Shown one piece after another: positions 4,592 to 51,712 of a stretch of 64,000 nt of DNA; within the stretch, counting starts at the first letter, position 1, and every line of letters begins with the position of its first letter. The stretch comes from Bispira polyomma (lineage: Eukaryota), in contig OZ287758.1 in NCBI GenBank assembly GCA_965649765.1, forward strand, positions 20,832,001-20,896,000, written 5' to 3'. The translations under genes and the position numbers were made by a program. The notes below the pieces were generated by a model, which had not been told where the DNA came from, ran no database searches, and was given only the letters and a program-made list of their open reading frames with translations.

Positions 4592-6738
4592 AGAAAGCAA
4601 GTCATTAATTTTTAAGTTCGGAATTAAATTATTACATACAAAACAACAGTCGGAGAACAAGATTTTCTAGTATAACGGGGGTATAGTTCATAATTTTGGG
4701 TACAGTTCATCTCAGGTACCTACCTATACACAGACACAATATAATATAATCCAGCACTGGTCCATACATATGTGGGATATGTTATGAATGAGGCTAAAAA
4801 AGCTGTCATCAACGAACGATGCATGACACTTGGGGGTTAATACACAGGGAAAACGTTCCACAGTATGACGGCACACCCAACCCCCAAGTTTCACAGTCTG
4901 AAAGCACCCCCCCCCCCCCTTAGATTTGGCTCTGCATTAATAAAACTTAAAAATTTTAGGGATCACAAGGTTTCATTAACTTATAATTATATAGCTGACA
5001 TAAAATATATATAGGTTTGAAGTAAATTGCCACATATAAGAATATAAGAGAATGATGCACGAGTTTGGCCTTTAATAAATGATCAAATGTTTGTAGATCC
5101 AAGAAACCTATAATACCATTTCTGTTAAACTGTTACACCAGCATTGTGACAATTCTGGTGAAGAAAAGCTTTATCAATCGATGTCTAAGAAAAGCTGCAT
5201 ATTGACTCGAGTCGCCTGAAATAAATAAGGTCTAAGGACTCTTGCTCATTGAAACGAGGGATGATTTCTCCAGAGTTTCACTGACATAATCTCTAGAACT
5301 TTCCAGAACATCTAGTTTATTGAATTACTGCTTGCCTTTCTAGACTTCATTTAACATATGGCAGTATCCCTTTATGTATCTGGATATGTGTATCCCTATT
5401 TTGAACAACCTCTACATTTTTCTTACCTAAGGGAACTGTTGCTGTTTTCAATTAAAAATATTGGAATGGTAAAACATGGCCTTTTGTTGAAATCGATCGT
5501 TGGTTGAAAATGCAATGAATACAAAACAATTTTATACATGTCTAATTAATTTAAATATGTTATCAATGTGATACACCAGTTTCTAAATAGGGCATAAAGT
5601 AGTATAAAAACCAGTGGCCACCAAAATGAGTGGGCGTAATAATAAAGAATTAAACCGCTCAGCCCTCCCCTTTTCTCTCTCTTTTTTTCTGTTGTACCAG
5701 CTGGCGCCTGCTTTAGAAAGGACACTTATCAAATTATCGCCCAATCCCCACAGCCACTTCCTTTTTAATAGAGTTTATTTTTTGCTTGGTCGGGTGAAAC
5801 ACATTGTTGCTCTTAATAAACCGAGAGTGGTAGAACAGAAATCAAGTTTGACAAGTTCTGTCAAGTTCCCATAATCCTGAATAAACAGATTGCCAGATAG
5901 TTATTCTATAACATTGTTTCATTCAATAATAGTCATAGCAAGTAATTTAATCACAGGATATTTTTTTCTGAGATTCTGTCGCTTTAAATTACCTGCAGTT
6001 ATTTTTTTTGCTATGTTATAATAGCTGACTTAAGTGATTGCATTAAAGATTTAATTGCATTTAGAGTAATTTTTTTAACAACACCTAAATAACTTGGGTT
6101 ATATTGCACAGACTTGTTTCATATATGTTGTTGGTCACCGTATTTTTACACGACTGGGTAAAATTGGTAAACTTGTGATTATGCGGGGTAGCCCCACAGG
6201 AGATAGTTAGTTCAGTGCTACTAGCTATCAATATTTGGTTAGACTTACCTATTGGGTCATAACCCTTGAAGCTCTCGCTTATTGGGGGACTATGCACTAA
6301 TTAACCTTACTTTTCCTGCTTTTCTTTAGAAATCCCCACTTGTGATATTAAAGGCAAGTAGGCAACGACGCCATCTTAAATATTTTTTACTTTTTGACAT
6401 AGTAACTTTGTTATTTTTACAAGGATTGTATTATATACATTTCATGATATTAACTACTGTGCTGGATGGATCCTCTGGAAAGTAACGTGGGGGATGCTCA
6501 CAAATTAGACAGGGTTAGACAGGCTCACGTTTCAAAACGAAACTGCTAACCAATCCCAAATTGACCTCCAGGAAAGGTCATGAAAGATCCATCCCATGTA
6601 AATATTTCTAAAGGGTACTTGTCCCCAAAAAGGGGACCATAAAACCAAAGGTGTGTCATACACCCATGTCTGCAGCAAGTGCTTACCAAATGTTGGTTCC
6701 TATCCCGTCCTGCAAAAGATTGCAGAAAAACTGCTGTT

Positions 6739-6773
6739 AAAAAACGAGTAGGGAACTGTAATAATGCAGTGCC
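6739..6773 (+). promoter_or_regulatory. Putative -1 ribosomal frameshift signal at the gag/pol junction of copy 1
   Basis: AAAAAAC (6739-6745), 6-nt spacer GAGTAG, then stem GGaACTGTA-ataa-TGCAGTgCC. Same position and architecture as in copy 2. Confidence 0.6.
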
Positions 6774-7660
6774 AGATTGTACATCCTCTAAGGCAGAGAG
6801 AATTAGTCAGGTTGCTAAAAAGCAATAGTAAATGATGTTAAAAGGTTTCAATTTCGAATATTGTACAGTAATACATGTATGTATGAAAGTAGTACGCACT
6901 GGAGGGCTGACTGGTCCAAAATTTGATAATTTGTCATATGCAGATGTCTTAAAGAAACTTACTACTCCCAGTGGTGTGGCTACCAGTAATGGTGTGAAAA
7001 GTTGTAATGTGTTAAAATGTTCTAACACCAACATTTTAGGGAAATCTCGCCCAGAAAAAACTACAACAGATGGGGGAAAATAGGTGATAAATGTGACACA
7101 ATGGGTTCCTGTTACTCCACCAAAGACAATACAAATGTCAGTTTTTACAAATGGGATGGGGACAAAAGGTGAATAAAAACACTGGTTTACAAAAGGTTAC
7201 AAATTGTCACCCACAAGAAAAGGCACAATGGGTTTTACCCATTCAAAACAGGTTTACCCTATTAGGTGGCAATGGTGATGTCCATAATTCTCCCTCCAGT
7301 GACAACAATGACTAGTACTAAACAAAATCAAGGCAGAGGCCTTACAATCTCTCCAGGTAATGCCACCATCAATGCAGATCCATACGATTTGAAACTACAA
7401 TGCCAGCCCCAAAAAGGGAACTGATTAAAGAGGCTTATGATGAGCCCCAGTTCCAGCAATGGAACTCCCAAACTACTGACAAATATGGTTTTATTCCATT
7501 AAGGGTCTTGTACATACCCGAAACAGACAAGCGTGATCAAACTCAAGCTAAATTATTGCAGCTATATAGTAAAATTAAAGATAAAAAATCTCACAATTTT
7601 ATGGGCTCACAAATTGAAATCAAATCCGAGTAAAAAGCAGATGTATGACAGAAACACTTA

Positions 7661-8595
7661 TTATAAAGAGTGGATGTCAACTGGTAAACTCAAAGTTAAT
7701 CCCGACAAGACTGAGTTCATAATCTTTGGCTCAAAACAACAGAGGGATAAGTTGACAGCATTGTTTCCAGTTGACATCCTGGGTAGCCCTTTCAGCCCAG
7801 CTGATTCTGTCAAGAACCTGGGTGTATGGTTTGACTCTGACTTTTCTTTCTCTAAACACGTTCAGAGTGTCTGCAAAAGCTGTTTTGTGCAATTTCGGGA
7901 CTTTAGACGTTTCAGGCGGTTTCTCACTTGTGATACTTCTATACTTGTGGCCAATGCTTTTGTCAGTAGTAGATTGAATTACTGCAATTCGCTTTTCAGG
8001 AGTCTCTCAAAGTTTAATTTACGTAAATTACAATGCATTCAAAATAGTGCAGCTAGAATTGTGTCCAACACCAGTCGACACACCAGTATAACTCCTGTTC
8101 TTAAGAAATTGCATTGGCTCCCTGTTGAACAGCATTCAGTGTTTAAGACAGCTACACTTGTTTATAAGTTTCTTCACACTGGGTTTCCAAAGTATTTTGC
8201 CCCATATCTTTCCACTTACAGTAGTTCCTACAATACCAGACGTAGCCAGAGTGGTAGTAATTTCCTTGTTGTTCCGAAATTCCACCCATCTACTCAAAAG
8301 TCGGTTAAACAGTTTGGTCACAGCTTTGCATTTGATGCTCCTATTGTTTGGAATGCTCTTCCTGATGTGATTCATGCTTCCCCCTCACTAGCCTGTTTTA
8401 GAAAGCAGCTTAAAACCCACTTGTACACTAAAGCATACCCACCTTAGTCTCAAACAACCCCCGGTGCGCTCTGTGGTGCTGACCCTTTTGTGTCCCTTGA
8501 TTTTGGAAATTGGATTACTGTCTTCTGTTCTGGTGCACCTTAGAGTCCCCTTTCAAAGATTAAACGCGATAAAAGTCTAATTACAATTACAATTA
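7661..8595 (+). mobile_element. 5'-truncated L2-clade (CR1 group) LINE: C-terminal ORF2, 3' UTR and (ATTACA)n tail, inserted in pol of YR copy 1
   Basis: Motifs WMSTGKLKVNPDKTE, VKNLGVWFD, RLNYCNSL, LQCIQNSAARIV, ITPVLKKLHWLPV, APIVWNALP. Stop at 8447; short tandem tail at ~8579-8595. YR-element pol resumes right after it. Confidence 0.9.
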
Positions 8596-8622
8596 GGACA
8601 AACAGCTGCTTTCCTAATAAGA

Positions 8623-8876
8623 TGGGGCCGCGGTGGCCTAGTGGTTAGCAAGCATTACGCTTCACAATTACTAGTCTCTCACGTCTGGGCGGCGTGAGTT
8701 CGAATCCTGTCGATGCCTAGGTGAGAAAGGTGGTAGTTCCTTACTGTGGGCCGCTGGTTTCAGTGCAGAACCTTGATCAACTGTATGCAGTGTTTCCTCC
8801 AGCGTTTCCAACTACCTGTCCCAATATAACCTAAACAGGTACTAGAGTGGAGGTTAAATATCCAAATTCAAATTCA
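8623..8876 (+). mobile_element. Full-length tRNA-derived SINE, copy 2, nested in pol of YR copy 1
   Basis: Same A/B boxes and body as 4328-4591, (CAAATT)n tail, TSD AATAAGA (8616-8622 and 8877-8883). Confidence 0.92.
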
Positions 8877-8883
8877 AATAAGA

Positions 8884-10228
8884 CACAGGTTTCGACTAAA
8901 TTTTAATCAAAACAATAGACATTGCTATGTTGATAATGCAACCATACAGAATTTACATATTTCACCTTTTATGACCAGTGAAATCCTGGCGCAGTCAATA
9001 GATGTGTAATAATAGATCTTAGCTTTCCTCATGGAGAGTCTGTAAATCAGCTGTAGCCAAGGGCAAGTACATGGATAACCTTTTTTGCCTTAACATTACC
9101 AACAATTGACGCACTCACTAGTAAGACCTCAAGACTAGGCTGTGGTACTCATTTCTATAAAATTGACGTCAGCCGCGCATTTCATCACATAAAAATGGAT
9201 TCAGCTGACCCTTTTGGGTCATAAACTAAATAAGAACTATCTAGATTTGTGCCTGCGAATTGGTTTTCGGCATGGAAGAACAATCTTTCAGCATGTTAGT
9301 GACAGTATTAGGTACATCATGAAATGTCAGGGTTATGACATCACCAACCATATAGATGATGTAATTGGTTATGGTAACGTCACATAAAGTAAACATTCTT
9401 TTGATATTCTATATAAGCTATCAGTGAGAAAACGTCACATAAAGCAAATATTTCTTTGATATTCTATATAAGCTATCAGTGACAAAAAATTGGTGTATCC
9501 AAGTACTGCAGTCACCTGCCACAGTGGCCTTTACAGTATCTTTGCCGCAAGAAAAGTTAGCAGAAATTAAAGCTCTACTTCAAGTCGGGCAAGCCAGACG
9601 CAATTGTACAAAAAGAGAACTACTATATGTTTCCAAATGCGTCAGGGTATCACATGTCTTTCTCAACCGGATATTAGACGTTTTAAGGTCAGTGGGTGCT
9701 ACACAAATAATACAAATCACTTCTGAATTCCACCAAGATGTTAACTGGTTTCTTCCAAAATTTAATGGAAAGGCATTCTTAGAACACAAACGTACCACAG
9801 ATTGTATACAATTAGATGCCTGCCTCCAAGGTCTGGGAGGTCGGTGTAACAATCAAGTATATGAATTCTCAATTACCTAGATTTTACCACAGTGCACCTG
9901 GTGGCCATAAGGGTATGGAAATCACTCTGGGCAGAAAAAAGGCTTCTAATACAATGTGGTAATGCGGCTGTTGTCACAATTTTGAACTCTGGCAAGACTA
10001 AAGATTTGACCTTAGCAGCTATGGCCAGGAACACATTCGTGGAAGTAGGCTTCTGTAGATATTAGTCTAAAGACCATCCATATTCTAGGCAGACTTAACA
10101 CAGTCGCTGATCTGCTGTCCAGGTTGCAGCTCACCAATAATAACAATAGTCAACTTGTAGATCTCATTCCAAATCCTAAGTGGGTTCAAGTTAAGGATAC
10201 CATATTAAACATAGACTGTTCTATATAA
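8884..10228 (+). pseudogene. Frameshifted RT-RNase H remnant of YR copy 1
   Basis: Fragments IIDLSFPHGESVN, YKIDVSRAFHHI, HIDD, CTKREL, VFLNRILDVLR, LDACLQGLGG, HILGRLNTVADLLSR, ending IDCSI*. All are homologous to copy 2. Confidence 0.85.
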
Positions 10229-10234
10229 TTGCAG

Positions 10235-11215
10235 ATGTACCCTCCCAGTTAAGAAAGACTGATACACAGGCATCACCAGAGCCCACCAAGCTTTCAGACC
10301 AGCCACTGAAAAGGCCTACATAAATATGTTTGGGATCTTCTCAGCTTATTGTTGTTTTTCTCAGATCAGACCACAGCTTGTCTATCCTTTAGTATAACTG
10401 GCTTTCTTAGAAGTTTTAGTGGTAAACAATGTTTTCTCCTCTTCAATTTCAAATTACATCTCTGCAATTAAAGCTAAACTGGCCCTGTATGGCCTTGACG
10501 TGTCTGTATTTGCAAGTCCTAGAATCAAATACTATCAAAAAGCTTTAGTACTAAATAGCCCTTATAGGGCTAAAATTAAGGCAATTATTGACACACCACT
10601 CTTACATCAGATCGTCCAGACTTGTGACACCATGCATATGGGTCAGGTATTTAAAGCACTTATCTCATTGCCTTTTTCTCTTTTCTCAGAATTTCAAATT
10701 TAGTTCCTTATGCAGTTTCACAATATTTAGCTCTTGTTCACCTTGCCAGGGGGATATTCGATTTGCCCCCCGCTGGTCTCCATCTTATTAAAAATGGTCC
10801 AAGAATCTTTAATCTAAAACTCTGGCCAAAGTACTTAAAATTCCAAGATTAACTGGTTTCCCCCTTGTATCCAGTAGTCGCTACAAGGTCCTTGTTGGCC
10901 ATTACTCATGGCCCTAAAAATGCCTCTCTCTTCCAAATCAAAAAAGATGATAAATGGTGCCCAATGACTGACACCAAAGTTTGCATAATTCTAACTCTAA
11001 TTCTCAGCCGACTGGGCCTCCAGAATTTCAACATCACCTTTCAAACCTTCCGGCGTTCAGGGGTCACTTTGGCTTTTAACAATAATGTGCCGACTCAGAA
11101 CATCAAGAGCCATGGCACCTGGACATCTGGACTGTGTCTGGAAATATATAATTCAGGTCCATAATGCATCTAAGCAAGTGACCCTTGCCTTGTAGTCCCC
11201 CCTTTACAACTCTAT
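10235..11215 (+). pseudogene. Frameshifted tyrosine recombinase remnant of YR copy 1
   Basis: AFRPATEKAYINMF, LAFLEVL, ISNYISAIKAK, FQTFRRSGVTLAFNNNV (catalytic H changed to Q), HGTWTS. Confidence 0.85.
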
Positions 11216-11284
11216 TGGGCTTTGGGGCTTTATTAACATACAACATATACAATATATATTTAAATGTCCGAAATATAAATTTTT

Positions 11285-11528
11285 GGGCCACCTTAGCACC
11301 TCTTTTCACTTTAAACTATATATTAATACACCTTTACTAATTAAATTCGGCAACCTTCAGCAAAATTTAAGGTTACCTAAAACTCTTAACTTAAATTCAA
11401 TTTTAGGTAACCCTTCTATAAGTTAGGGCTACCCTTAACCTAAATAATTTTGGCCACCTAAACTAGATTAGGTTAAGGTGACCTCAATTTTTTTTTAAAA
11501 ACTTAAACTCACGGTGCCACGGTGGCCC
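11285..11528 (+). other. 3'-terminal multi-hairpin domain of YR copy 1
   Basis: Closing stem 11285-11300/11513-11528 (14 of 16 pairs). Internal perfect stems 11371-11382/11401-11412 and 11433-11443/11468-11478. CTTAAACTCAC at 11502-11512. Confidence 0.75.
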
Positions 11529-12726
11529 CAATCTCAGTATGTAAATAAACTATTAGTGATAACATAGAAATTTAACTAATATCCCAAACTTTCTCTTTTT
11601 TGACTTGTGTTTATAACCTCTTTAAGGTCAAAAGGGTAGGACACTAAATGAGTGTTCACCAACTTTTTTTTCAATTATTATCTCATTTTCAATTGGAAAC
11701 TGATTTAGAAGTACAGCATCAAGGAGTACTATTTGGCATCAGTTTAAAATAAAAACCCAAAACAATGTGACAGTATTAATGTTTACACCATATAATTTAC
11801 TGATATGCTATGTGAGTTTTGTTTATTGCATTTAAAATGTTGTTTTATTTAATTTTACTACCTTGGCGTGTTTGATGTATAAATGGGTGACAATAATATG
11901 GCAACATGATATAACATAACTTTTACTTAATGTTTTTATGAAATATAACAAGTACTAAAAATCCTCGATGCCTAGTTTATATAATTTTTCATTGCCATTT
12001 GTTTTTATCACAATGTATTAGTTCCTGGCTGTTGCAAATGCACAAGTAATTATATTTTACATACACAACCAAAGTAGAGCTTGGCCTGGCCTGAATAACA
12101 TTTGTGGTGAGGAGAGTTATGGTGTGGTCTCTTGGCATTTCACACACCCTACACATACTGCAGCTGATTACTTACTTCTACCCCTCCTCACCCCAGCCAA
12201 CCCTATTTAGATACTCTAGCCAAACTAACATGGGGATTTTTTTCCTATTTTAACTGTTCATATACTGTGTCTGATACTGACCATTTGTAGGATTACCAAG
12301 ACTGAATATACAGAAAATAATTATACATCATCAGCATAAAGGCAATTTTCTTTATGAATTTCGAAGCCTGATAGACAAGTGTATATATATTATACAGACC
12401 TCAATGTCACAGATGCCAATTGGGAAAAAGAAACTATCTGATGGATAAAATGTATATTGTTCCTTTAGCAAAATCCTAGATGTTATTTCAACAATCAATT
12501 CAAGTTTATTGAACAAGTGGCCAATGTACACCCACTGTAGTTATATTGGCCCGGTTATTGCTTCATTTACCTATTTAGTATTGATACACAGTAAGGGAAG
12601 CTTAACAAAAGCTGTTACAATGTACAAATTGAGTTAATTTGTGTGGGGAATTAGGCAGACACAGCAGTGGCTGAAGGGGTATTGATTAGACTACAGTATA
12701 CATCATGTCTGGAACACACTCTGGAA

Positions 12727-14225: not shown

Positions 14226-15606
14226 CCCAGCGGGCATAACGATGTCTATATGATGTCTAAATGACGTACCACCCCGATGTCTAACTGACATCCTTTTTTG
14301 GTTGGATTTGAAAGTTGGAATGACATCATTTTTCTGGGGTCTAAATGACATCGGAAATATGATGTCATTTAGACGTCAGATATACGACATCATTTCAACT
14401 TTCAAATCCAACTAATAAATGGAGTACATAAGAAAAAGAGGGAGGGAGTAAAAGAAAAACGGGGGGGGGGGGGGGGGGGGGGGGGGGAAGGTGGGGCAGT
14501 AAATTTTAGCAACTGCCTTTACACTTCCACCTTTACCCTTACTTACCAAAGTGGTGCATACATTTAAGGCAGACAATAGGTTTAAGAAATATCTCTGATA
14601 TATAACTAATATAATATAGTATAACTTATGGTTGTCAATGTCTGAATAATTAAGATGTTTTGTGCTTCAGATAATTTTTTTAAAATTCATGTTGATGCAT
14701 TTCATATTTGTGGGACCGATATATATAATATATATATATATATATATTTATTATACCTCGGGGGCAAATCTAGAGATCCTATTGGTTAAAATTCGATCAG
14801 ATGACATAACATATTTACAGATATGGCCCCAGAGTCGCGGGCCATATTACTGCAGCAGGCCATATCACTTGCAAGGTTCAGCAAGCACCATTTGCGGTAA
14901 TATTTTGGTATTTCAATAATATTTACATATATTTAACATATATAACTTTAAATTACATCAAAACTAGTACTTAACGCTATTTTATTTAAATTATCATTAA
15001 TGCTCTGACAACCCCTACAATCGTCATACTCGTTATGGGTGTTAGGGGCGCTACTAAACCTCGGAGCTCGGCGAAAATAGACATTGTCTCTAAAAAAAAT
15101 TATTGAAAGACTATTTTTTTTCTTAAAAATGCTTCGGTATAATAAACAGAATATAAGCTGTTTGTGAGGGCCATACTAGGATATATGCACCCAAGGCCAA
15201 TATGGCCTGAGGGCCATCATTATGACCCTTACTTATCCTATATTCTGTAAATATGCTGCCATTTAAGACCCACATAATCATATTTGCTGGGCTGCGTACC
15301 TGCTGGGCAATTACAAAAAAGACCATTCCCATAATTCTCTTCCACAGGGATTTATATTAGGAATGTCATTATAAAATCATAACAACATCTAAATATATGT
15401 CATCTAAATATATGTCAGATAGTGTACATCATAATGACATCACAATGACATCTAAATATATGTCAGATATTGCAGATCATAATGATGTCTTAATGACGGC
15501 TAAATATATGCTTAATACATTAGGATGTCAAAATGACGTGGAAATGACATTATGTCCATTTTTAGACTAAAATGTGATATCAAAAAGACATCAAGTGCCT
15601 ACTGGG
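14226..15606. mobile_element. Non-autonomous DNA transposon, CMC/EnSpm-like
   Basis: TIRs CCCAGCGGGCA / TGCCTACTGGG flanked by a 2-bp AT duplication. Dense subterminal GA(C/T)(G/A)TC repeats at both ends (14240-14400, 15360-15595). Contains poly-G at 14461-14487 and (TA)n near 14720-14745. Confidence 0.7.
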
Positions 15607-16069: not shown

Positions 16070-16221
16070 TAGAAATAAAGTACACAGGCTTGTTTTTTTT
16101 GGCGAATCAAGGACAGCCTTCCGGCATAATGGACTCGAACCTACCGGCCCTCGTCCATTATTGCGTCGTAAGTCAGTCCTTGATTCGGCAATAAAGTATT
16201 CGCCCTTGAACTTTATTTCTA
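16070..16221. mobile_element. Palindromic (foldback) non-autonomous element of ~150 bp
   Basis: Nested inverted repeats: TAGAAATAAAGT/ACTTTATTTCTA, CGAATCAAGGAC/GTCCTTGATTCG, ATAATGGAC/GTCCATTAT. Confidence 0.75.
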
Positions 16222-28699: not shown

Positions 28700-29470
28700 C
28701 TAACACAACATTACAGTATGAGCTGAAGCCACAATGCCCATCAAGCTGCTCTCCCTGAATTACACAACCCTCACTGATATGTCACAGACACATCACTAAA
28801 ATAGCACGAAGTTTACAGAAAACAGTAATTAGGGAGAAAACAACAGTATGCTGATGACATCTACTTGTTGTCAGTCTGATAATGATCCAAAGAATGACAA
28901 CTATATATGTGTTCAGTTGTATAAAATAGAGACTGTTAGATTACACAACTGCTGGGTGTTTTAAGCACTGGTATGTCACTGTGTAATACTATAGTTTGAA
29001 CACATGTTATATAAGAGGATTGCCTGAGCTTTTCTCTTTTTATTCATATCTATCCCAACCAGTAATTCCTTATAGATGCAGTATACACTCTTATCGGCGA
29101 TTTTATGTTACTTCCACAAGCCTCAACGGTAGCTACATATGTCTTTTTTGGTGTACAAATATCAGCATAAAAACATGCACGACCAAAATCCCATATGTGG
29201 CTTTCTTCACATTTGACTTCAATACATTTACATAACCCACCCTTACTGATCATTTCTTAGAGAAATATATTTTTTATCTATTTTGTTGTGGGTCCTGTTA
29301 TGTGATATCTGTACAGTAATGCAGCAATCTAAGTCCCATCTGTACACATTATCTGACAGTGTAAGTCCTTGGTGGTATCATAGGAGTCATTTAGACCCCA
29401 AACAGCCCCCTAAAAAACGTCCTGGCCCCTTGTCTGGTGTGTGTAGCTACTGTTGCTGGGAGCCAGCTAC

Positions 29471-29510
29471 CTCTCTCTCTCTCTGTGAGTATATGTGTGT
29501 GTGTGTGTGT
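29471..29510. repeat. (CT)n and (GT)n microsatellites in a pyrimidine-rich, possibly promoter-like region
   Basis: Direct reading; CT-rich tracts continue to ~29660. Confidence 0.8.
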
Positions 29511-30460
29511 TGGAGTAGGCCCTTTTCCACCACATGCAGTTGCTGCACTCTGCTCCAATGAAACCACAGTTTTTCCTTTTTCTATTTTTCCAGCTTCACT
29601 ACCTTAAATAGCCCTGCCTCCTCCCCCCTCTCTCTCTTTCATTACCCCCACCTCTTCAGGCCATATAAAGCAATATATTGGTTGTTTTTCTACTCTGTTC
29701 TAGTTTTGTCAATACTCCTTTTGGATATGTACCACCTTTGTGCTTTCAGTAATCTGTTTATTCTTCCTTGACACTATTTCCTACACAGAAGTGCTTCAAT
29801 CTCAAGCTGTAGAAGTATCTTTTATCAAGGGCACGACTTCGACGAATCAATCAGACCTCCATGCTTTAATACCTGTTGTTATCATGTTAAATATGTGGTA
29901 AGTTCTATTTTTTTTTAGGTCTTCCTGTCCCACATTATATGTCTACAAGTCTAGTTAACAAAAATTCACTGTTTTTTTCTATTTAGTGGCCAATTTTTAA
30001 GCTTAATACCACTATTACTTTGTAAAACATTCTTCAGAAATCAATTTTGCTCATGCACTTACAAAGAGAGGATTCATGTCTAGTGAAAATTTAAATTTGT
30101 AGTAATAGAAATGGTTGATTGTGAAAATCCCTAAACAATACATCGCCCAGCAGTGTCCTAAATCAATAATTGACCAGAAAGTAATACATAGTAGGATAAA
30201 GTCATCCTAAGCGTCAGTGCCCCACTTTGAAAGCTAACGCCCCCAGCGTTAGTGGCCTCAGTTCTGGGGTACCAGGCTGTTCACTACTATGGGATGGATG
30301 GGCGAGTATATGAGCCATCCCCCTTTCAAATTCTCCTGCCTTTTACCGTTCGTCAACAGAAGCACTAGGAAAATTTAAATACTGTTTGGGTGACAAAGAG
30401 TGTTTTATGTCTATACTATTTATTTGGTTTTAGTATTTTAGTTCAATATACACTCAAGTC

Positions 30461-31479
30461 ATGCCAGGTAAAAAGACTGTGTTTTGTCCGAAGTGTTTGC
30501 AAAAACATGAGAGACCTGTTGGAAGAAACTGTTTGGTTAATATGCCTGATATCTCGGGTGAGGGGGTGGAAGTTGATGCTGGCTCCCATAAGGACTCGCT
30601 GGTTCATTCGAACGAGGCTGTATCTAGCGCTATGCTACAGCAGTTACAATCTCTCAGCCAGGTAGTCGAGAGGATGGATCAGCGAGTCCAGCAGACGGAG
30701 GCAGCGTTGGCAGCTAACCTCACCAGTAGTAAGGCAAGTAGTACCGTTACTTCTAGTATCACTCTTAGTGTTTCTAAAGATTTAGTCTCTGCTGACGAAG
30801 GTAAAAGCCCACCTACTGGCCCGGATACTGTCGTTCCGAGTGTCAAATTTTTAATTCAGAACGCTCAGATTCAGTTGCAAGTAGAACAGAGGTTAAAAGA
30901 ACTCCGGTCTCTTAATGAAATTCCCTCAGGTAAAATTAAGTCTCAAAGAACTGGGGGGAACGAGGTTATTGTAAAAAAGGCGGTCGAATGGCCCCAGAAT
31001 TATGTGCTGACTGGCAGCTCAAAGACTCGCCCTAGTTATGACGACTTAACCCTCGTTCAATGGGTTTGTGGCTTCACCCGGATCGCTCATGAGGAGAAGT
31101 CGATTGAAATTAAGAACACTATGCTAGATTACATGAGTGGGAGGCGGCGAAGGCCTGCCATGCGGTAGTCCTGACAAATATGGAGATGGACAAGTTTGGG
31201 TGGTTGGATGTCGAGAAGGTCGACCGGATCTGCAGGGCACACGCCCAACGCCATGTAGGTGTGTCCAGATCTTTTCATGGGGCGAATGGCCGTGCTGGTA
31301 GCACTGGCAGTAGTAAAACTAGTCAGAAAAAGTCAACACCTTGCAGGTTCTTTCAAGAAGGAACTTGCAAGTTCTCTAGCTCACATAATACAGGCGGACA
31401 AATGTACAGGCATGGCTGTGAAACTTGTGGGGGTAGTCATAAGACCAGTATGTGTAGCAAAAAGGAGGCAAAAAACTGA
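30461..31479 (+). pseudogene. Gag-like ORF1 of YR copy 2 (broken near 31137)
   Basis: N-terminal CPKCLQKHERPVGRNC knuckle, coiled coil, WPQNYV and YDDLTLVQWVCGF. The frame switches to WEAAKACHAVVLTNME, followed by a C-terminal CRFFQEGTC..H..CETCGGSH..C zinc cluster. Confidence 0.85.
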
Positions 31480-31503
31480 GGGGCCACTGCTTGGATGCAG
31501 TGG
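31470..31503 (+). promoter_or_regulatory. Putative -1 ribosomal frameshift signal (gag to pol) in copy 2
   Basis: A_AAA_AAC (31470-31476) lies immediately before the gag TGA, followed after 7 nt by the stem CCACTGC-ttggat-GCAGTGG. The -1 frame is the open frame of ORF 31491-32213. Confidence 0.75.
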
Positions 31504-33988
31504 ACAGAAAGGTTAAAAAATTTAAGGTTGTAAATAGAACTGTTTATGGCACAGGCTTTAAAAATTTTCATTTGTTTGAGGAAAATGTGTATCAGAAAAT
31601 GTGTAAATATATGAAGGTCAAAAGGTCGAATGTTAGCTATAGTGAGGCTTTAAAAAGTACTGCTAGTACCAGAAAATCAATGTTTGTATATAATACAGGG
31701 CATACAGAAAATCTGAGGTATAAGGGTGAAGTTGACAGGTTTAGCTCTGGGGAGGTGACACAAAAGGGCAGGTTTTGCCAACCACAAAAGGTTGGCAGAG
31801 CTGAACTCAAGAATAATGTTGACACCTCTGCTGCCACATCTATTCAAAGGTTTGAAAAGTTAACACCGGTAATTGGCACCTCCATTCAAGTGGCTAAGAA
31901 GGTAACACCTATTGTGAAGCGACCCCCATGCACAAAGCACCAGGGCGTGGAGACAAAAGGTGTTAGAATATCAATTCAGAGGGGGGGCGAAAAGAGCCGT
32001 GTCAATGAAGCTCACTGTGGCCTTCAGCTTAACAATCGTTTTTCCGCGTTAGCACAAATACCTGTGGAGGACAATGCAGCTATTGTGAGGGTCGTTCGCT
32101 CTAGTAGCACGCCGGTAACAATGGGGGCTTTGCAAAGCACCAAGAGACAGGTACTTGCACAGAACGTGTTAATGAAAATGTTGAAATCTCTGATAAGTAT
32201 TCGTGTGCTTTAAAGCACAAGAAAAATAAAAGGGAGTTGCCTGCATAAGGCGGCCTCGAATCAAACACACAAAAAATGGCAGGACCAAAGTAGTCATGCA
32301 TATGGATTTATTCCTCTCTCAGCTTTGGGCAGTGAGATTGCTGACCAGGGTGGGGGAGGGCACGAATTATCCATATTACAAATGCATGAGAAACTACGTC
32401 TTGATGGCAGACATAATTATGCTGGCCTCCAGATTCCTGTTCCTTCCCAATTAAAAGCAAAAACGTGGGGGAAGTATTTACAAACCTACTGGAATTGGCA
32501 ACTGCCTCTCCTTATAAAATATGGATTCCCTCTTGATGTGTGTCGAAAAATTCATACCGAATCGAATGAAACTAACCATAAGTCGGCGGAGGAATTTCCT
32601 CAACATGTACACGCCTATATGAGGGAAGAATGTGACTTTGGGGCAATGCTTGGTCCTTTCGACACCCCACTGATTCGGAATTTGCATTGTTCCCCTTTAA
32701 TGACCAGACATAAACCCAACTCGCTTAACAGGCGTGTGATTGTGGATTTGAGTTGGCCTCAGGGGGCTTCAGTAAATGCAGGTGCTTCCCCGACTTCTTA
32801 TCTGGGTGTCGATTTTTTACTGTCTTACCCTTCTATTGATCATCTTACTGCTGAAGTGTCTAAATTGGGAAAGGGTTGTCAGATATTTAAAATAGACGTA
32901 AGTAGGGCGTTTCACCACATCCCCATCGACCCTGGCAACATTGACCTCTTTGGGTTGAAATCTTACTATGTTGATAAATCGCTGCCGTTCGGTTATTTGA
33001 ATGGCAGTACTATTTTCCAACGAATTTCGGATGCAGTGCGTTTCATAATGCACTCAGAAAATCATAACGTCCACAATTATATTGACGATTTTTTTATGTG
33101 TATCACTTCCCAGCAAAATTCAGAAAACGTTCATAAGATTGTAAGAATTGCTTGCTGAACCTGGTCTTACAGTTAGCCAGAAAAAATTGGTTTCCCCCAG
33201 CACTGAGGTAGTCTGTTTAGGCATAATAATAGACACAGTCAAATGCACAACTTCTATCCCGTCTGAAAAAATGGCAGAAATCCAGAGCAAGTGCAGGGAT
33301 TGGGCTTCAAAAATTATTGTACCAAGAGAGAACTACAGTCCTTACTGGGCCTTTTGCTATACATCTCTAAATGTATTAAATATGCTCAGGTTTTCTTGAA
33401 TAGAATGTTGGAACTGCTAAGAGATAATCATAGTAAAAATAAAATTGTAATAAGTGATGCATTTAGACGTGACTTAAATTGGTTTACAACTTTTGCAGAG
33501 CAGTTCAATGGTGTTTCCTTTTTCTTACATAAACCCATATCAGGTGAGATAGAATTGGATGCCTGCCTCACAGGTATGGGGGGGATTTATGGAAATCAAA
33601 TTAAAGTTCCTACAAGTATAACAGAGTATAACATAGCTTCTCTTGAAATGCTGAACATTTTGGTAGCATTGAAATTATGGATCCGAAAATGGAAGGGTCA
33701 GAGAATTTTAGTAAGATGTGACAATCAGGCAGTAGTCAGTGTCTTACAGACAGGACGTACTAGAGACCCATATTGGCCACCTATACTAGAAACATATACA
33801 TGTTAGCCAGTAAGTTTGACATTGAAATTGTTGTGGTCCATATTCTAGGTAGAGAAAATAAAGTGGCTGACTTACTTTCCAGATGGGCCGAGACAGAAAG
33901 TAACCACCTATTACTAAACCAATTGGCTGGACCTATTCAATGGCTTCCTGCCCCTGAAAATCTGCTTTATGTAAACACTCTTATATAG
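31476..33988 (+). pseudogene. Pol of YR copy 2: basic N-terminal extension, reverse transcriptase and RNase H (several frameshifts)
   Basis: RT motifs RRVIVDLSWP, FKIDVSRAFHHI, LPFG, YIDD, CLGIIID. RH motifs LDACLTGMGG, LEMLNILVALKLW, RCDNQAVV, HILGRENKVADLLSR. Confidence 0.92.
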
Positions 33989-33994
33989 CAGGTT

Positions 33995-34013
33995 GTAGTT
34001 TTCTTTTTTCAGG
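33995..34013 (+). promoter_or_regulatory. Putative 3' splice acceptor directly upstream of the YR frame
   Basis: gtagttttcttttttcag|G with AG at 34011-34012. Phase-1 entry is in frame with YR. Copy 1 has ttgcag| at the equivalent position (10233-10234). Confidence 0.65.
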
Positions 34014-34967
34014 CACTCACCCTGTGGGTCTGGCTCTGATGAGACGGGCTTGTGATAAGCTGAACTCAGCTCTCACTCCAGCCACTAATATAGCATATGA
34101 CAGGATGTTCCGACAGTTCCTAGCTTTTGGAGTCTTTATGTCTTGGCCTCCCCACAAGGTGACTGTGTTGCAAATTTTAGCATATCTAGAGTTCTTAAAT
34201 TTCAATGGTGTTTCGGCCTCTCAGGTAGTGAATCACATGTCGGCTGTGAAGGCAAAATGTGTGCAAGTATTTTCTGATCAGAGAATTTCTTATTTCACTA
34301 AGGCCATGGCTATGCATAGACCTTTACAGGTGAAGTTGAAGTGCACTTGCTTAGGGCTCTGATTAGTAAATGTGATAGTACTTACATGGGCCAGATTTTC
34401 AAGGCTGTTTATTTGACAAGTTTTTTCACATTTTTGCGTTTATCCAATCTGTGTCCTCATTCAATGGGGTCATACTCTCCCCTTAAGCAACTAGCTAGAG
34501 CTGATGTTTTCTTCAAGCCAGGGTATGCGGTCATCATAGTCAAATGGTCTAAGACACTGCAGAGAAATGATGCAGTTCGTTTGTTAACCATCCCAAGTAT
34601 ACAAAATTCAATTATCTGTCCTGTTCAGGCCTTGAAAGCCATGTTAGCCATCTCACCAAAAGTGAAAAATCTCCCATTATTTCAGTTTAAACTCCAAGGC
34701 TCGTGGGTTTCACTAACGGACACACGTGTGCGAAGACACCTCAAAAATATACTATCCTTACTTGGTACTCAGTACTCTGGCTTGACCTTTCACGCCTTCC
34801 GACGTTCAGGTGCCACCTTTGCGTTTAACAATAATGTCAAGATTCAAGATATTCAAAAGCAAGGCACCTGGACGTCGGATTGTGTTTGGCGTTACATCTC
34901 AGACTCTGTTGATGCTGGTACTCAGGTTGCTGATTCCTTTAAAAATGTCCTACAAAACACCTACTAG
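34013..34967 (+). pseudogene. Tyrosine recombinase of YR copy 2 (one frame break near 34345)
   Basis: Catalytic set is present: FLRLSNL (R), KWSKT (K), HAFRR (HxxR), QGTW, RYI (Y). Confidence 0.92.
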
Positions 34968-35030
34968 TTTGGGGCTTGGTGGTCTAACTTAAATATTCAG
35001 GCTTAAGATCTGTCATCTAAGACCTTTTTA

Positions 35031-35338
35031 GGCATAAGGTCCCCCCCCTTTATTATATTAGTACATATTGTACTCAAGTATCTAAAGTTCGACTTAAAAC
35101 CCTAAGTCAAACTTTAGACTAGCATAAATTTAAAGTTTAATCTCTTAAGTTTGCACTTAAATCAAAATTTTTACCACACCTAAACTCTTAACCTTAAACT
35201 CAAATCCTCTAAGTTTGGACTCAAAGTCAACTTTGGCAAACTTACACTCTTAAACTCATTCTACTTAAGGTCACCTAAACGTAAGCTTTGTATAAGCTCT
35301 AGGCCTTAAACTCACTTGAGTTAAGGGGACCTTATGCC
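35031..35338 (+). other. 3'-terminal multi-hairpin domain of YR copy 2
   Basis: Perfect 14-bp closing stem GGCATAAGGTCCCC/GGGGACCTTATGCC. Internal hairpins at 35060-35074, 35081-35118, 35145-35160, 35210-35244 and 35265-35309. CTTAAACTCAC at 35305-35315. Confidence 0.8.
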
Positions 35339-38300
35339 CACAACAGTATTACGTATTCTACAAAGAAACTGTATATAAAAAATGTGTTAGTAGTAGAAAT
35401 CATATACATATAATATGATTTCTTTAACCGCAATCTTTTCTTACTGTGAGTTGTTGGTTAAATAACTATCATCTGCCCACACACCGAGGAACTGTATACA
35501 CATTTCACCCCAATTAAAGTCTTTTTCCCTTTAAGCGTCAAAATATGTCATAGTTACTATGAAAAAATACACTATATATATATCGTGGTTTGTTGTATAA
35601 GCATAATGACTACTTTTTGTAAGTTCTGTTGTTGTAAGCTGTTTTGTAAAATAAGGCAACCATGTTAAACCAAAGAACGTCCAAGTGTGACAATATGTGA
35701 CAAATGTTATATAGGAAGTGCTTTCTTGTTCTGAACCAGTGGACTGGAAGAACTGCCGGAAATGGGAAGCTCTATCGGCAGACAGTATGTACAAAAGCTG
35801 AATCATGGCATGAAGAAACAAAGGCCGAGTGCTGAGAACATTCACTGAACTCATTGTGATAAATAAAAATCTTAGAAGAAGAAGTGATAATTATCTTAAA
35901 GGCTATCTATATTGTGCACAATTTCCTTGCTGGATCATGTGGTACTCGTGAGGGCATTCATAGGCATTCGTTGTTATCCATGCCTTACCGTAGGGACTTG
36001 TTCTATAAATCTATGCTATTCTTGAAGTAATCCATACACTTCTGTATTGCCGTGCTGTAAAGACTAAAATCTCCCACTCCACATACATTCAGCCGAGAAC
36101 ATTTCCTTCAAAGAGAATCCAAAGTCTAATTTTTTAACTGCGCCATTCCAATATAGCCTTACTTTGTTCCTTGGTTAACTGCTAATCCTTTTGTTGACAT
36201 TCTTGCCTGTACTTCCCATATCTATGATTAGGATGATATGTTTGTGCTTTAAGTTTTTACAGGACGAAAGGCTATATTAGATTAGACTGTATAATATTTT
36301 ATCAGTTTTTTGTCGGTCACTGACTTTCAAAATTTGAAATAATATGCAAACTCGTAAACAAGTTTTTTTTCTGTTTTTCAAAATATAAAAAATATATTTT
36401 ACTCCAAACAACAGGCCATAATATAAAAATATAAAAAAAATATTGTTACAGTTGGCAAAAAAAAATTGCCCTTTCTTTGCCAAAAAAATGCTGAACAATA
36501 TGTATATATTCTTTGTAAAACGGGTACTTTAGCCATGCCACAAGATCAATAGATTATTTTGTACAGACATTAGAATATGTGTAGTTATTCCCCTGCCATG
36601 GTTTGTAAAATCCCACTGTTTCACAATATTCCTTTGGGTAAAACAGATCAACAGTTTTGCTTGGCCTTGTGCAGGGTTAGCCGTTCAATAATGTCCAAGG
36701 AAAAGGTCAAAACAGAAATCAATCCCGCCCTGACAGACCTCAACAAGAAGGGACTTTCTAATGCCATTTGATCCTACCAAAAAAGATCCAGCCTCAATCA
36801 CATAGAGTGATATAGGCTATGTTTGTTTTATTTACTAACAATAATCTATGGCATGTTGACATTTGTGCATCGTAAACCTTAATGCCAGGGAAAGCACCAT
36901 GTGTGTCCACGAATAGTTTGTGCTGTACATATAATGGACTGACAAGGCCTAGTTTTAAATGGAATATGTCAAAAATAACCTTGCACATGGCAGTTGGTAA
37001 AACATCCTTGATAGTGTGAAGCCTCTATTTAACATGGACCTCATTAATAGAAGAATTGTAACTGTTATGCGTTGGTGGCCAAAACTGCTTATATGTCTAT
37101 ATTGCACACTTTCTCTCCCTTTCTTAAATTTAGTAGCTTCCCTTTTCCTTAGTTCGTCACTCCATACCACTCTGTTATACTTACTAATTACCTTTTACTT
37201 TGATTCACCTTCATTACCCTTATCCATCTGGCTTTATCTGTGGTTAATATTACTTTATTCCCTTAAATACTCACCTTTACCTTTACTTTGGTTCAATGCC
37301 ATATTCCCCTCCTTTAAATCATCCTAACTTACTTCACCTTAAATTGAAAATCTTAACTGTATGTGGAGAAAGCTACTATTGTTAAAACTTATACAACATA
37401 TCCATGAAGAGATTTTAGTGGATTAATTACAGAAAATAACCACAATAGCACAGAAATAGGACTCCTAGATGTAAGTATTGACATCTGGTATAAATTATTA
37501 TATAGATAGGGGGATATGTAGCATGCAATGTTTCTCAACAAGGAATGAATGGTACCAGAGACAATATTATCATCATTGTATTTGTATTTGCTGATAATGT
37601 AACAGGTTGTACGGTTACATCCTTAAAAAGTGCAGCAGTTATTTTTTTTACTGATCATGTGACTTTGTCTGAGCCAATGATACTCGTGCATCTTACGCAT
37701 GTATGTACACCCACTGAAAACTGTATAAAGTATACGAGGGACTAATTAGGCATGACATCACTGATATAGCAACCATTTCTTAAAGGCAAATGTGGGTTAG
37801 TGAGTATGATTACTATTCTTAAGGCACTTCCATTTTATAGCCCCCAGTTCCATTATTATAGTTATATCTATATGGGTGTAATAAGCATTGTATAGAACCC
37901 ATCATAAAATCTTTAAGCAGCTGCCCGGCACCATCGGAGACCAATTCGGCGTTAGAAAATGTTTTTGTTTAAAGCTTCTGCTTTAAGTTTAATCATTTAG
38001 AATGTAAAATATTTTGTATGTATAGGTTAGGGTCCTATGTTCTCTCTTTGTAAATAGAGTACAGCTGTCGAGGTGGTTTAGATTTAAATTACAACCTAAC
38101 AGTTATACACATATATATACATCTTCTCTTCCAATCATTCGATGATATGGATAAGTGAGTATCCTTTGGAAAAAGGTCACTGTTTTCAATGCTAAAGTCA
38201 CCTAGCTGGGATTAAATTACAATTTAACTATGTTATGCCATATGTATGGATAATATTTGCTCTGCTCGTCACACACCAGTGAAATCAGGAATTCAGAAAT

Positions 38301-42722: not shown

Positions 42723-42947
42723 ATTATATGAGTTACTCTTAATAAATTAAGGTGATAAAGTCTTTTGAATGCAGTTATTTCCAAGATACACATCTTTTAT
42801 TTGTTTTCATGATGTAGTACCTATAACTTCATCTGTAGTTGAAAATATCAGTGTGAATGAAAATGCACAAATAATGTTTTGAGTAGTCTTTTATGAAACA
42901 AATTTTTGGATAATAATAACTTGGTATATGGTTATTAAACCATTTGT

Positions 42948-43127
42948 ATACATGATCTAATAAGTGCCTACACATGTCTAATAAGTGCCTATACATGTCT
43001 AATAAGTGCCTATACGTGTCTAATAAGTGCCTATACATGATCTAATAAGTGCCTATATGTGTCTAATAAGTGCCTATACATGTCTAATAAGTGCCTATAC
43101 GTGTCTAATAAGTACCTATGCGTGTGA
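42948..43127. repeat. 21-bp minisatellite (TCTAATAAGTGCCTATACATG), about 8 copies
   Basis: Direct reading. It explains the repetitive ORF 42829-43038; an isolated partial unit lies near 43271. Confidence 0.95.
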
Positions 43128-49500: not shown

Positions 49501-51021
49501 GAATATTTATGGGTTTTGTTTTGAGAACTAATTTTCATATGGACAGTGCTGCCTCTCCCATGACATTACTTTTTTTGACCTTGGACACAGTAAAATGACA
49601 CAGTTAGAGTATATTTGTTTGATAACTATGTCATTAATAGCAACCTATTTACAAACTGAGTTTAAGGTCACCTTACTGAGTTGGGTTGGACACCACCAGG
49701 TAAGTATACATCTAGTATTAAAGTGGTCAAAAACAAATCAGAGAAGAAAATCACCTGACATTAGACAGTTACCAAAACTGAATAACATTTGACCATGTCC
49801 AGCGAGGGCAGCTATTGCACTTTTCCAAAAGTACCTCTGCCAGTACAGGCTACACTACTGGCTGATAGGTACCTTGATACATTTTCAAGTCTTTTAAAGA
49901 TCAGTCTGACAATTTTAGACATAGGTGGTAACTGTAACAGTGAACTACAGCTAGTTGATAGTCTAATTGTATCACTAATACAGTACTGTATTTCTTAGAA
50001 CATAAACTTGTAGAGTGCCTCAATTTTAGTACATAAAATAGTCACTGCCAGAGGAAAAGTAGGCATCACAAAAAAGGGAATGTAATTATTTTGTTTTCAT
50101 CCCAGAGCTCTTTTCTTCAGACTTCTCCTGACTTTAAACATCTCATAAATACTTCACGAGACCAAAAATCAAACAATAATCCTGTGAAGCTATTATTACT
50201 TTCTTGCCAATAGGGAAATGAAACTTTGAGGGCTTGTTTTCTTTTTCTTCTCAAGATTTACTTCCATTTAGCATCCCTTCATGAATTTTTATCACTTTGC
50301 TAAATGTCAATGTTTCTTAAGGAATTCCGCTGAGAGTTTTAAAACTCCACAAGATGGCAAATAAATTGCAATGAAATACTGCACTATTTCAGCATAAAGA
50401 GGAGGGAAATGCACGAAACAAAAACTCTTAATTTAAGAGAAAACTTTGAACACTTCAAGGAACTGACTTTCTCTAGGGACACTTCATCACACAGACAAAT
50501 CGATAAAGTAGGGGCATACAAAAAATAATTTTATCAAACCAAAATAGTAGTAAATATTGCAGTAGAACAATACGTTTCGCACATCTTCTGATGAAGCTGT
50601 ATGCTTTTTACTTAATGTCAATGCGAAGTAATATGACAGTCACTAAATGATCGTAACACCTAAAGTCTCAAAGTGATTACTTAGATTAGGCATTATTTGA
50701 GGATAACTTCTATCTTATTTTATGTTAAACAAATGAATACGGTCAGATAAGTAAATTTTTATGGTGATGTTTAAAACTTACAACATTAAAATTATCAATT
50801 GAAATCAAATTTGGATTTTTAAAAGATAATATTTTTGTGTTAAATAATCAACGGAGAAAAATAGACACAATTATGACCCGGACCCGATTCTGACCATCCG
50901 TATAATTCTACAAAATTTTACAACACAAAGCAGTAATTGACCATACTATATACATCATATCATGTTCATATTTATGTACTACATTTACCATTGATCAAAG
51001 CCCATTAACATATGTTATATA

Positions 51022-51256
51022 GAGGGGTGGACAACTTAGTGGACGGTGGAAAGCTTAGCGGACAGTAAGTAAAAATGTACACAGTTTATCGATTTAATAA
51101 ATAATCTTGACACGTTTTGGATGCAAAGTTTGCATATACAATAAAATTAGTGGGTTAAGTACTTTATATTTTACAGATGCCTTTTTAAATGCAACAAATT
51201 TTGTTTTAAGTTACTGTCCGCTATCGCTGTCCTGTCCGCTAAGCTGTCCACCCCTG
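51022..51256. mobile_element. Tc1/mariner-type MITE
   Basis: TIRs (C/G)AGGGGTGGACA(A/G)CTTAG(T/C)GGAC with internally repeated TAGCGGACAG, flanked by TA on both sides. Confidence 0.85.
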
Positions 51257-51712
51257 TAACTCCACAACAGCTATATAATTCCACCCCAGAATTACCTCTC
51301 AGTCCCACAAATCTTGGTCTATGTTAAAGGACACCCAGATATATCTTGTGCTCCCTGTATGTCAGACATTTAGCCAGAAGTGGCCAGAACCTTTCCACCG
51401 TGTGCCACATCTAAATAATTCAAAAAGCTCATATATCTCCAAGCTCACCCTTTCTCACTCTCAGTGACATGAATAATTGGTGGATGGCAAACCCTTTTGA
51501 TTTTTACCTACACTCAATTGGCTGGACAACAACATTCTGACCTTGGAGGTTGACATTTAGCTCTAGGACATCTGAGGATGGTAGGTCAGTGACGTCAGGT
51601 ATCAGATAAAATTGTAGCATACCACTTATGTTAAGCCCCTCCAGGAGAAGGAACTAGGCACGACATTTTATAAGAAGTTAGCGTGTACCTTAATATATCT
51701 CACAGGGACAAA

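What the first reader, a model, noticed from the sequence alone, without database searches (positions are those of the whole stretch)
30200..35340. YR retrotransposon family with a retrovirus-like expression plan and non-canonical termini
Seen: two diverged copies (this one and 6085-11530) share gene order and three non-coding signals at identical positions: a slippery site + hairpin at gag/pol, a splice acceptor before YR, and a structured 3' domain. I found no long ITR/ICR (DIRS1-type) or A-BAB split direct repeats (Ngaro/PAT-type) around either copy. Established: DIRS-order elements depend on such repeats to make a circular intermediate for YR integration. Inference: this lineage may make Gag-Pol by frameshifting, make YR from a spliced subgenomic mRNA (as retroviruses make Env), and use a folded 3' end instead of classical repeats. 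I cannot tell whether this has been described.
Basis: partly seen in the sequence, partly recalled or inferred. Interest (0 to 1): 0.85.

Follow-up and report, generated by a model that had tools for sequence, protein, structure and literature searches.

The report
Retrotransposon splicing gag onto its recombinase
These are two dead copies of Ngaro-like jumping genes that appear to make reverse transcriptase by ribosome slippage and their integrating enzyme by splicing it onto the front half of Gag, a different route from the one proposed in the review I could see quoted; whether their folded, unrepeated ends are normal or just damage is unresolved.

Summary
The anatomy is real: two decayed gag–RT/RNase H–tyrosine recombinase (YR) elements (A 30200–35450; B ~6085–11610). 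They are separate families (36% RT identity) of a large Ngaro-like radiation without a methylase. -1 frameshifting at gag/pol is well supported: the two sites rank first and second of 42 A-AAA-AAC heptamers for hairpin strength, and 15 of 28 complete Gag relatives end in KN(x). The splice claim holds but needs correcting. The donor most likely lies inside gag (30930), giving a Gag(N-half)–YR fusion rather than an Env-like message. A relative (L001) sits beside a shorter copy joined in frame at exactly that GT–AG pair, though a microhomology deletion could mimic this. The acceptor lies 65/64/65 nt before a conserved proline in A, B and L001, and 84 of 105 Gag relatives keep a donor-compatible glycine (5% of control windows). 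The review I could see quoted proposes frameshifting for YR instead. The folded 3' domain is real and homologous between A and B, and no ITR or split direct repeat exists. But both copies are dead, repeat loss is common in Ngaro copies, and L001 has a 460-bp direct repeat, so 'non-canonical termini' is unproven (~0.3). No RNA evidence.

The parts
30207..30330 (+). Element A 5' region with hairpins, upstream of gag; the true left end is not defined
   Evidence: z -1.4 as a whole, z -5.0 for the 120-nt window from 30160; similarity to B's head not significant, p 0.13
30461..31479 (+). gag-like ORF: N-terminal Cys/His motif, coiled coil, conserved helical core, C-terminal CCCH/CCHC box; frame break near 31140
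   Evidence: translation; 476 relatives at E<=0.001; zf-CCCH E 0.0018, below cut-off; model of relative P0007
30927..30935 (+). Candidate phase-1 splice donor inside gag (first intron base 30930, after 156 codons); preferred donor
   Evidence: rank 3 of 76 GTs in gag; homologous to the donor of the joined copy in L001; donor-compatible Gly in 84 of 105 relatives vs 90 of 1784 control windows
30555..30563 (+). Alternative phase-1 donor (first intron base 30558); not conserved in relatives
   Evidence: rank 1 of 76 in A, but a compatible Gly in only 5 of 41 relatives with the N-terminal motif
31470..31503 (+). -1 frameshift signal: heptamer 31470-31476, gag stop, 7-bp hairpin 31484-31503
   Evidence: KN(x) ends in 15 of 28 Gag relatives; KKxxxxC and HCxxAV at pol N-termini and the fused protein P0200
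31470..33988 (+). pol in the -1 frame: ~260-aa variable linker, RT, RNase H; no protease, no methylase; broken at several places (about 32211, 33130, 33305, 33770)
   Evidence: RVT_1 E 6.6e-9, RT_RNaseH E 0.008; 156 relatives; ends 34 aa after ADxLSR like 86 of 88 complete relatives
33989..34013 (+). Phase-1 splice acceptor (first exon base 34013), 65 nt before the conserved YR proline
34013..34967 (+). Tyrosine recombinase (SAM-like N-terminal part, HAFRR and catalytic Tyr region); frame break near 34340
   Evidence: Phage_integrase E 0.0018, below cut-off; 52% identity to P0001; Atlas YR clusters at score 0.98
35030..35339 (+). Folded 3' domain: 14-bp closing stem (35031-35044 with 35325-35338) enclosing several hairpins
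   Evidence: z -7.3; helices listed; homologous to B's domain, p 0.003
35369..35452 (+). 3' extension past the closing stem, shared with element B; the true right end is not defined
   Evidence: alignment; p 0.003
6085..11611 (+). Element B, a second family: gag remnant ~6434-6751, heptamer 6739 with hairpin 6752-6773, decayed pol to 10228, acceptor 10235, YR to 11195, folded domain 11285-11528
7665..8872 (+). LINE 3' fragment plus SINE nested in B's pol; not part of the YR element
   Evidence: translation; second SINE copy at 4329-4577, 93% identity; class names recalled from sequence features, not from a database hit

Best explanation
A and B are dead copies of two families of Ngaro-like YR retrotransposons in an animal-like genome (host type inferred). 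One transcription unit gives three products. (1) Gag, from the unspliced RNA. (2) Gag-Pol, by -1 slippage on A-AAA-AAC stimulated by the downstream hairpin. (3) A Gag(N-half)-YR fusion, from a subgenomic mRNA that splices a phase-1 donor just before the gag 'K-x-KS' motif to a phase-1 acceptor just after the RNase H stop (about 3.1 kb intron in A). The fusion keeps the Cys/His motif and coiled coil of Gag and drops the conserved core and zinc box, so the coiled coil may tether YR to the Gag particle (inferred, untested). The folded 3' domain is a cis-element of the element's terminal repeat region. Most likely the full-length families carry split direct repeats and these two copies kept only one unit of each (e.g. 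loss of A2-B2). SHOWN in sequence: signals, conservation, one joined genomic copy in a relative. INFERRED: that ribosomes shift, that the RNA is spliced, the role of the Gag tag, the history of the ends.
For: Frameshift: top 2 of 42 heptamers; 15 of 28 complete Gag relatives end in KN or KNx, against 0.5% KN frequency inside the proteins; of 119 pol relatives, 7 carry KK[RL]xxxC and 4 carry [HN]CxxAV in the first 80 aa (controls beyond aa 80: 12 and 0 in 77,800 residues; most ORF calls start at a later Met); P0200 is a single ORF joining Gag to 'RVRHCNAV' exactly at this site. Splice: L001 holds a full element and a shorter copy lacking 2466 nt (a multiple of 3), gag joined in frame to YR; the GT-AG placement uses the top-ranked donor of 124 in gag. 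L001's Gag aligns with this family from the donor onward (HH probability 94.9%). The best AG before the YR proline is 65 nt (A), 64 (B, frame break inside), 65 (L001) and 53 (L002) upstream, phase 1 in the three unbroken cases, while the RH-to-YR frame differs (-1 in A, B, L002; 0 in L001). Donor-compatible Gly in 84 of 105 anchored Gag relatives vs 5% of control windows. The donor falls between modelled domains. Ends: L001 has a 455-460 bp direct repeat at both ends that also folds, z -3.5; Xenopus Ngaro copies often lose their repeats (PMC9210276).
Against: No RNA or ribosome data. The L001 junction has a 4-nt microhomology, so 5 placements are equivalent and only one is GT-AG; the same short copy has a second, non-GT-AG deletion with a 4-nt microhomology. 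L001 is one contig in a bacterial MAG, with 1040 bp identical between its two copies, so assembly effects are possible. The acceptors of B and L001 score weakly (ranks 29 of 319 and 46 of 380). No Gag-YR fusion protein came from the two 'longer' protein searches (weak, as the proteins look like genomic ORF calls). P0001 is an RT-RH-YR fusion, 1 member, unexplained. 21 of 105 Gag relatives lack the donor signature, and relatives are not independent; a protein-level G-K motif could add to the signal. 13 of 28 complete Gags do not end in KN(x), and L001 uses an in-frame UGA-CUAG instead. B's donors are deleted. That two independent families both lack repeats is some evidence against simple loss.
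Confidence: 0.65

Rival explanations
1. Genuinely repeat-less termini: the lineage of A and B has no split direct repeats, and the folded 3' domain (on the RNA or on the single-stranded minus-strand cDNA) primes or circularises the cDNA, or serves directly as a folded YR substrate. Expression as in the best explanation.
For: Two independent families both lack repeats yet share a homologous, strongly folded 3' domain. A's inverted-repeat arms are still 14-bp perfect, so a repeat of 100 bp or more should not have decayed past detection (inference). The minus strand folds with a stronger z in 3 of 4 model/element pairs. DIRS-1 cDNA is mostly linear and single-stranded (PMC7192593 passages). The closing stem resembles the rICR/right-terminus pairing of DIRS1 elements (PMC3266345 passages).
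Against: Both copies are dead. The relative L001 has a long direct repeat that also folds; B's tail resembles it weakly (p 0.023 uncorrected; A's does not, p 0.30). Repeat loss is common. The A-C vs G-T mismatch bias beside helices (18 vs 5) is near the ~2:1 expected from composition, and the helices overlap. No complement to a 5' end was found.
Confidence: 0.3
2. Textbook Ngaro expression: YR is made by a second -1 frameshift at the RH/YR overlap, giving a Gag-Pol-YR polyprotein; the acceptors are incidental and the L001 short copy is a microhomology deletion.
For: YR overlaps the RH end by about 10 codons in the -1 frame in A and B, the layout for which Poulter and Butler proposed frameshifting (quoted in PMC13003380). 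Microhomology at the L001 junction. P0001 is an RT-RH-YR fusion.
Against: I saw no XXXYYYZ heptamer shared by A and B in the RH/YR overlap (read; not scanned separately). The RH-to-YR frame is 0 in L001 and varies in fungal Ngaros (PMC3783388 section 15), whereas acceptor phase and distance to YR are kept. It does not explain the donor signature in Gag.
Confidence: 0.15
3. YR is made from a leader-spliced (Env-like) mRNA or by re-initiation at an internal AUG, without Gag sequence.
For: A has an in-frame AUG in the YR N-terminus, and acceptor-like and donor-like sites lie upstream of gag.
Against: That AUG was not seen at the same place in B or L002; conserved phase 1 would be unnecessary; the L001 joined copy uses an intra-gag donor.
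Confidence: 0.1

Closest known systems
Ngaro-like YR retrotransposons (Goodwin and Poulter 2004; e.g. DIRS-53_XT and DIRS-54_XT in PMC9210276; Cafeteria Ngaros in PMC8547959)
   Same: gag, RT/RH, YR order; no methylase; short -1 overlap of YR with the RH end (as quoted in PMC13003380); a relative with a long direct repeat (L001).
   Different: No split direct repeats in either window copy; no hydrolase ORF seen after YR; evidence for a spliced Gag(N)-YR product where the review proposes frameshifting; a defined A-AAA-AAC plus hairpin signal at gag/pol.
DIRS1-like elements (PMC3266345, PMC7192593)
   Same: YR integrase; an internal 3' sequence complementary to a more distal 3' sequence, like rICR with the right terminus.
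   Different: No methylase, no ITR, no lICR match to the 5' end, no long ORF overlap.
PAT-like and VIPER elements (PMC4157794, PMC6681497)
   Same: YR plus RT/RH; Gag zinc finger as in Pat1.
   Different: PAT carries a methylase, absent here; VIPER lists YR before RT/RH and is known from kinetoplastids; both have split direct repeats.
Retroviral and Copia subgenomic splicing (MMTV/HTLV A-AAA-AAC frameshift, env mRNA, foamy virus pol mRNA: recalled; Copia short-Gag mRNA PMC5580714: search listing only)
   Same: -1 frameshift for Pol on the same heptamer type; a spliced subgenomic mRNA for a 3' gene.
   Different: Here the donor lies inside gag and the product is a Gag-integrase fusion; env uses a leader donor, and Copia splicing makes Gag alone (recalled).

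Membership tests
Ngaro-like | gag, RT/RH and YR ORFs in that order | tested here: met
Ngaro-like | No methyltransferase after RNase H | tested here: met
   86 of 88 complete pol relatives, and A and B, end 34 aa after ADxLSR; no Dam domain among the Pfam labels of 120 listed hits
Ngaro-like | YR start overlaps RH end slightly in the -1 frame | tested here: met
   feature as quoted in PMC13003380
Ngaro-like | Split direct repeats A1...B1-A2-B2 | tested here: not met
   none in A or B. Hence 'works like Ngaro', not filed as a member. L001 has A1/A2 but at most an 11-nt B2.
Ngaro-like | RT/RH groups with named Ngaro references in a tree | not testable with these tools
   no named DIRS, PAT or Ngaro sequence among the hits; the tree has no references; Repbase and Dfam not available
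DIRS1-like | ITRs plus ICR | tested here: not met
   only a 3'-internal 14-bp (A) or 8+5-bp (B) closing stem
DIRS1-like | Methyltransferase domain | tested here: not met
PAT-like | Methyltransferase plus split direct repeats | tested here: not met
VIPER-like | YR upstream of RT/RH | tested here: not met
   order as listed in PMC6681497

The most novel reading that the evidence does not exclude
A large invertebrate lineage of YR retrotransposons (host range inferred) combines a -1 Gag-Pol frameshift and a spliced Gag(N)-YR fusion with no terminal repeats at all, using a folded single-stranded cDNA end as the primer, circularisation or recombinase substrate: a third end architecture in the DIRS order.
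Probability: 0.25. Interest if true: 0.85.

Novelty: new variant of a known kind. Interest (0 to 1): 0.62.

Why it matters
How DIRS-order elements express their recombinase is untested; the one statement I could see (a review quoted in PMC13003380) guesses ribosomal frameshifting. A conserved intra-gag donor and YR acceptor give an exact junction that existing RNA-seq can confirm or kill. It would explain why the YR frame varies among Ngaro elements, and would suggest how an integrase that is not part of Pol reaches the particle. If the repeat-less folded ends prove normal, the circle-by-repeats model would not cover the whole order.

Tried and rejected
Rfam scan of the window: no ribozyme or other family over the elements; 2 weak miRNA-type hits elsewhere. 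ARAGORN: no tRNA. Searches for an ITR, ICR or SDR, including the possibility that A starts near 29300: nothing above chance. MITE insertion as the source of the 3' fold: rejected, because it lies at the same place in both families, is homologous between them and shows no target duplication. Upstream donor 30558: not conserved. Gag-YR fusion proteins: none among 150 Gag hits or in the 'longer' searches. First version of the donor test (85 of 114) mis-anchored some rows and was redone. Atlas search with Gag: no usable hit. Fold searches with the Gag model: only coiled-coil matches, best Z 4.9, and no Foldseek match at E<=0.001; this says nothing about the core's fold. The origin of P0001 stayed unchecked. 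RNA-versus-cDNA strand test: inconclusive. Metagenome and viral contig collections were not searched, no host genome was available, and no further family members with flanks were obtained. [quoted passage not shown]
Full report
WHAT IS THERE. The window is AT-rich, nearly ORF-free DNA; 7 of its 10 ORFs of 120 aa or more lie in 30434-34967. Translation shows gag (30461-31479), a linker-RT-RNase H pol (31470-33988) and a tyrosine recombinase (to 34967), each with frame breaks. A second, more decayed element (B) lies at about 6085-11610 in the same order; it lacks most of gag and holds a nested LINE fragment and SINE. A and B share only one 107-bp DNA match at standard BLAST settings and 36% RT/RH identity over 423 aa. 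In a FastTree of 93 sequences (A, B, L001, L002, P0001 and the 88 of 119 other listed pol hits with a complete RH end; 31 dropped) they are not sisters. They are two families of one radiation: 476 Gag relatives at E<=0.001, 150 listed, and 156 pol relatives, 120 listed, many with 10-44 members. None carries a name.

GAG/POL FRAMESHIFT. Both elements have A-AAA-AAC in the gag frame just before the gag stop, and a hairpin at the same spacing. Of 42 such heptamers on both strands these two have the strongest hairpins. The -1 frame reads KKLRGHCLDAV in A and KKRVGNCNNAV in B. Relatives agree: 15 of 28 Gags with the C-terminal box end in KN or KNx, two more carry it 7-9 residues before the end, and 11 do not; KN is 0.5% of internal dipeptides. 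Seven of 119 pol ORFs carry KK[RL]xxxC and four carry the hairpin's peptide signature [HN]CxxAV within their first 80 aa; P0200 is a single ORF that crosses from Gag to Pol at this very site. The signal is not universal: L001 has an in-frame UGA-CUAG instead (read-through context recalled). Frameshifting itself is inferred.

YR EXPRESSION. A's acceptor (first exon base 34013) is the top-scoring of 354 AGs in the element; B's (10235) is weak. A scan of GTDB genomes with an alignment of 18 of the pol hits returned two eukaryote-looking contigs in bacterial MAGs, 2 of 16 candidate stretches. L001 (about 35% RT identity to A) holds a full element and, beside it, a shorter copy in which 2466 nt are missing and gag runs in frame into YR. 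One of five equivalent placements of the junction is GT...AG; that donor is the best of 124 in L001's gag, and it lies just before KLKSG, homologous to A's SG|KIKSQR donor at 30930. I had picked 30930 as a phase-1 candidate before L001 was fetched. In all four loci the best AG in the 110 nt before the conserved YR proline lies 65, 64, 65 and 53 nt upstream, phase 1 wherever the frame is intact, although the RH-stop spacing (24, 6, 13 nt in A, B, L001; the script printed 14 for L001 with a one-base offset) and the RH-to-YR frame vary. A phase-1 donor predicts a Gly preceded by an NCA/NAA codon and followed by an ANN codon: 84 of 105 anchored Gag relatives (45 of 150 could not be anchored) have one in the six residues before the motif, against 90 of 1784 control windows. 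In a model of a Gag relative (mean pLDDT 84, pTM 0.49) the donor lies after the Cys/His motif, coiled coil and helices 109-133, and before the conserved helical core and zinc box. Against this: the junction has 4-nt microhomology and the same short copy has a second, non-GT-AG microhomology deletion; L001 is one contig; relatives are not independent; no Gag-YR protein was found; P0001 is an unexplained RT-RH-YR fusion; my splice scores come from a generic matrix of recalled frequencies.

THE ENDS. The 3' domains fold far better than shuffles (z -7.3, -6.1), are colinear and homologous (p 0.003), and homology continues about 110 nt past the closing stem. No direct or inverted copy of them exists upstream or elsewhere at length, and Rfam has no match. 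It is weak evidence about the families. Both copies are dead. In Xenopus the DIRS-54_XT consensus lacks split direct repeats that two of its copies have, and partial loss is common (PMC9210276). Recombination between B1 and B2 would leave A1-ORFs-B with no repeat (inference). L001 has a 455-460-bp direct repeat before gag and after YR that begins near a similar G-rich motif and folds at z -3.5. For the rival: two independent families show the same state, and the minus strand folds at least as well as the plus, which would suit a single-stranded cDNA such as DIRS-1 makes (PMC7192593). I put repeat-less termini at about 0.3.

COMPARISON WITH THE KNOWN. By order, lack of methylase and the short -1 RH/YR overlap it works like Ngaro; it fails the split-direct-repeat test in these copies and could not be placed against named references, so it is not filed as a member. 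Papers seen: PMC9210276 parts 1-3 of 5; PMC3783388 passages and section 15; passages only of PMC6681497, PMC3266345, PMC7192593 ('spliced' there concerns the reporter intron in the 12 passages shown), PMC2632668 (31, plus the text of two supplements, 82 and 85, figures not seen; it reports an amphioxus Ngaro-like element with an unusual repeat arrangement), PMC9341512, PMC8547959, PMC4157794, PMC13003380, PMC8556966 and bioRxiv 10.1101/2022.06.16.496473 (74). PMC13003380 quotes Poulter and Butler 2015 that YR is probably made by frameshifting, so frameshifting in Ngaro elements is not a new idea. Ten full-text searches showed no listing or passage describing a spliced Gag-YR product or this 3' domain, but the three primary sources and Repbase/Dfam notes were not available, bioRxiv supplements are closed, and most hits were seen only as listings. 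Prior description cannot be excluded.

VERDICT. A new variant of a known kind. The most valuable result is the specific, testable splice (about 0.75 for a spliced intra-gag-to-YR mRNA; about 0.9 for the gag/pol frameshift); the termini claim remains open. Interest 0.62.

Noticed in passing
window 49540-49700 (-): Isolated stretch resembling element B's 3' end past the closing stem (BLAST E 5e-4; picked after a whole-window search); no RT or YR nearby; could be a solo terminal remnant or another repeat.
   Followed up: partly
window 7665-8872 and 4329-4577: LINE 3' fragment and a tRNA-like SINE nested in element B; the SINE has a second copy at 93% identity. ARAGORN calls no tRNA.
   Followed up: partly
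L001 3878-3884: gag and pol are in the same frame across UGA-CUAG, a read-through-type context (recalled), so related elements switch between read-through and -1 frameshift.
   Followed up: partly
L001 and L002: Eukaryote-type retrotransposon contigs are binned in two bacterial MAGs, probably host contamination.
   Followed up: no
L001 7223-7824: The contig ends in an inverted duplication of part of gag (7703-7824 vs 2315-2436), cutting off the expected B2 repeat; rearrangement or assembly artefact.
   Followed up: partly
P0001 (protein): Single-member 861-aa RT-RH-YR fusion joined exactly where relatives stop, with a YR N-terminus about 7 residues shorter than the acceptor predicts.
   Followed up: partly
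pol linker, window 31500-32300 and relatives: A 200-400-aa variable linker precedes RT, with an NRFxxL motif in 40 of 119 relatives; function unknown, no protease seen.
   Followed up: no
window 14294-14419, 16070-16221, 51020-51258; 42947-43125, 56476-56726, 61476-61855: MITE-like palindromes and three tandem arrays; 14294-14419 gave a weak miRNA-model hit far below the family cut-off.
   Followed up: no
window 29340-29760: GC-richer, pyrimidine-rich stretch with microsatellites and several acceptor-like sites about 700 nt upstream of element A's gag; relation to the element unknown.
   Followed up: partly
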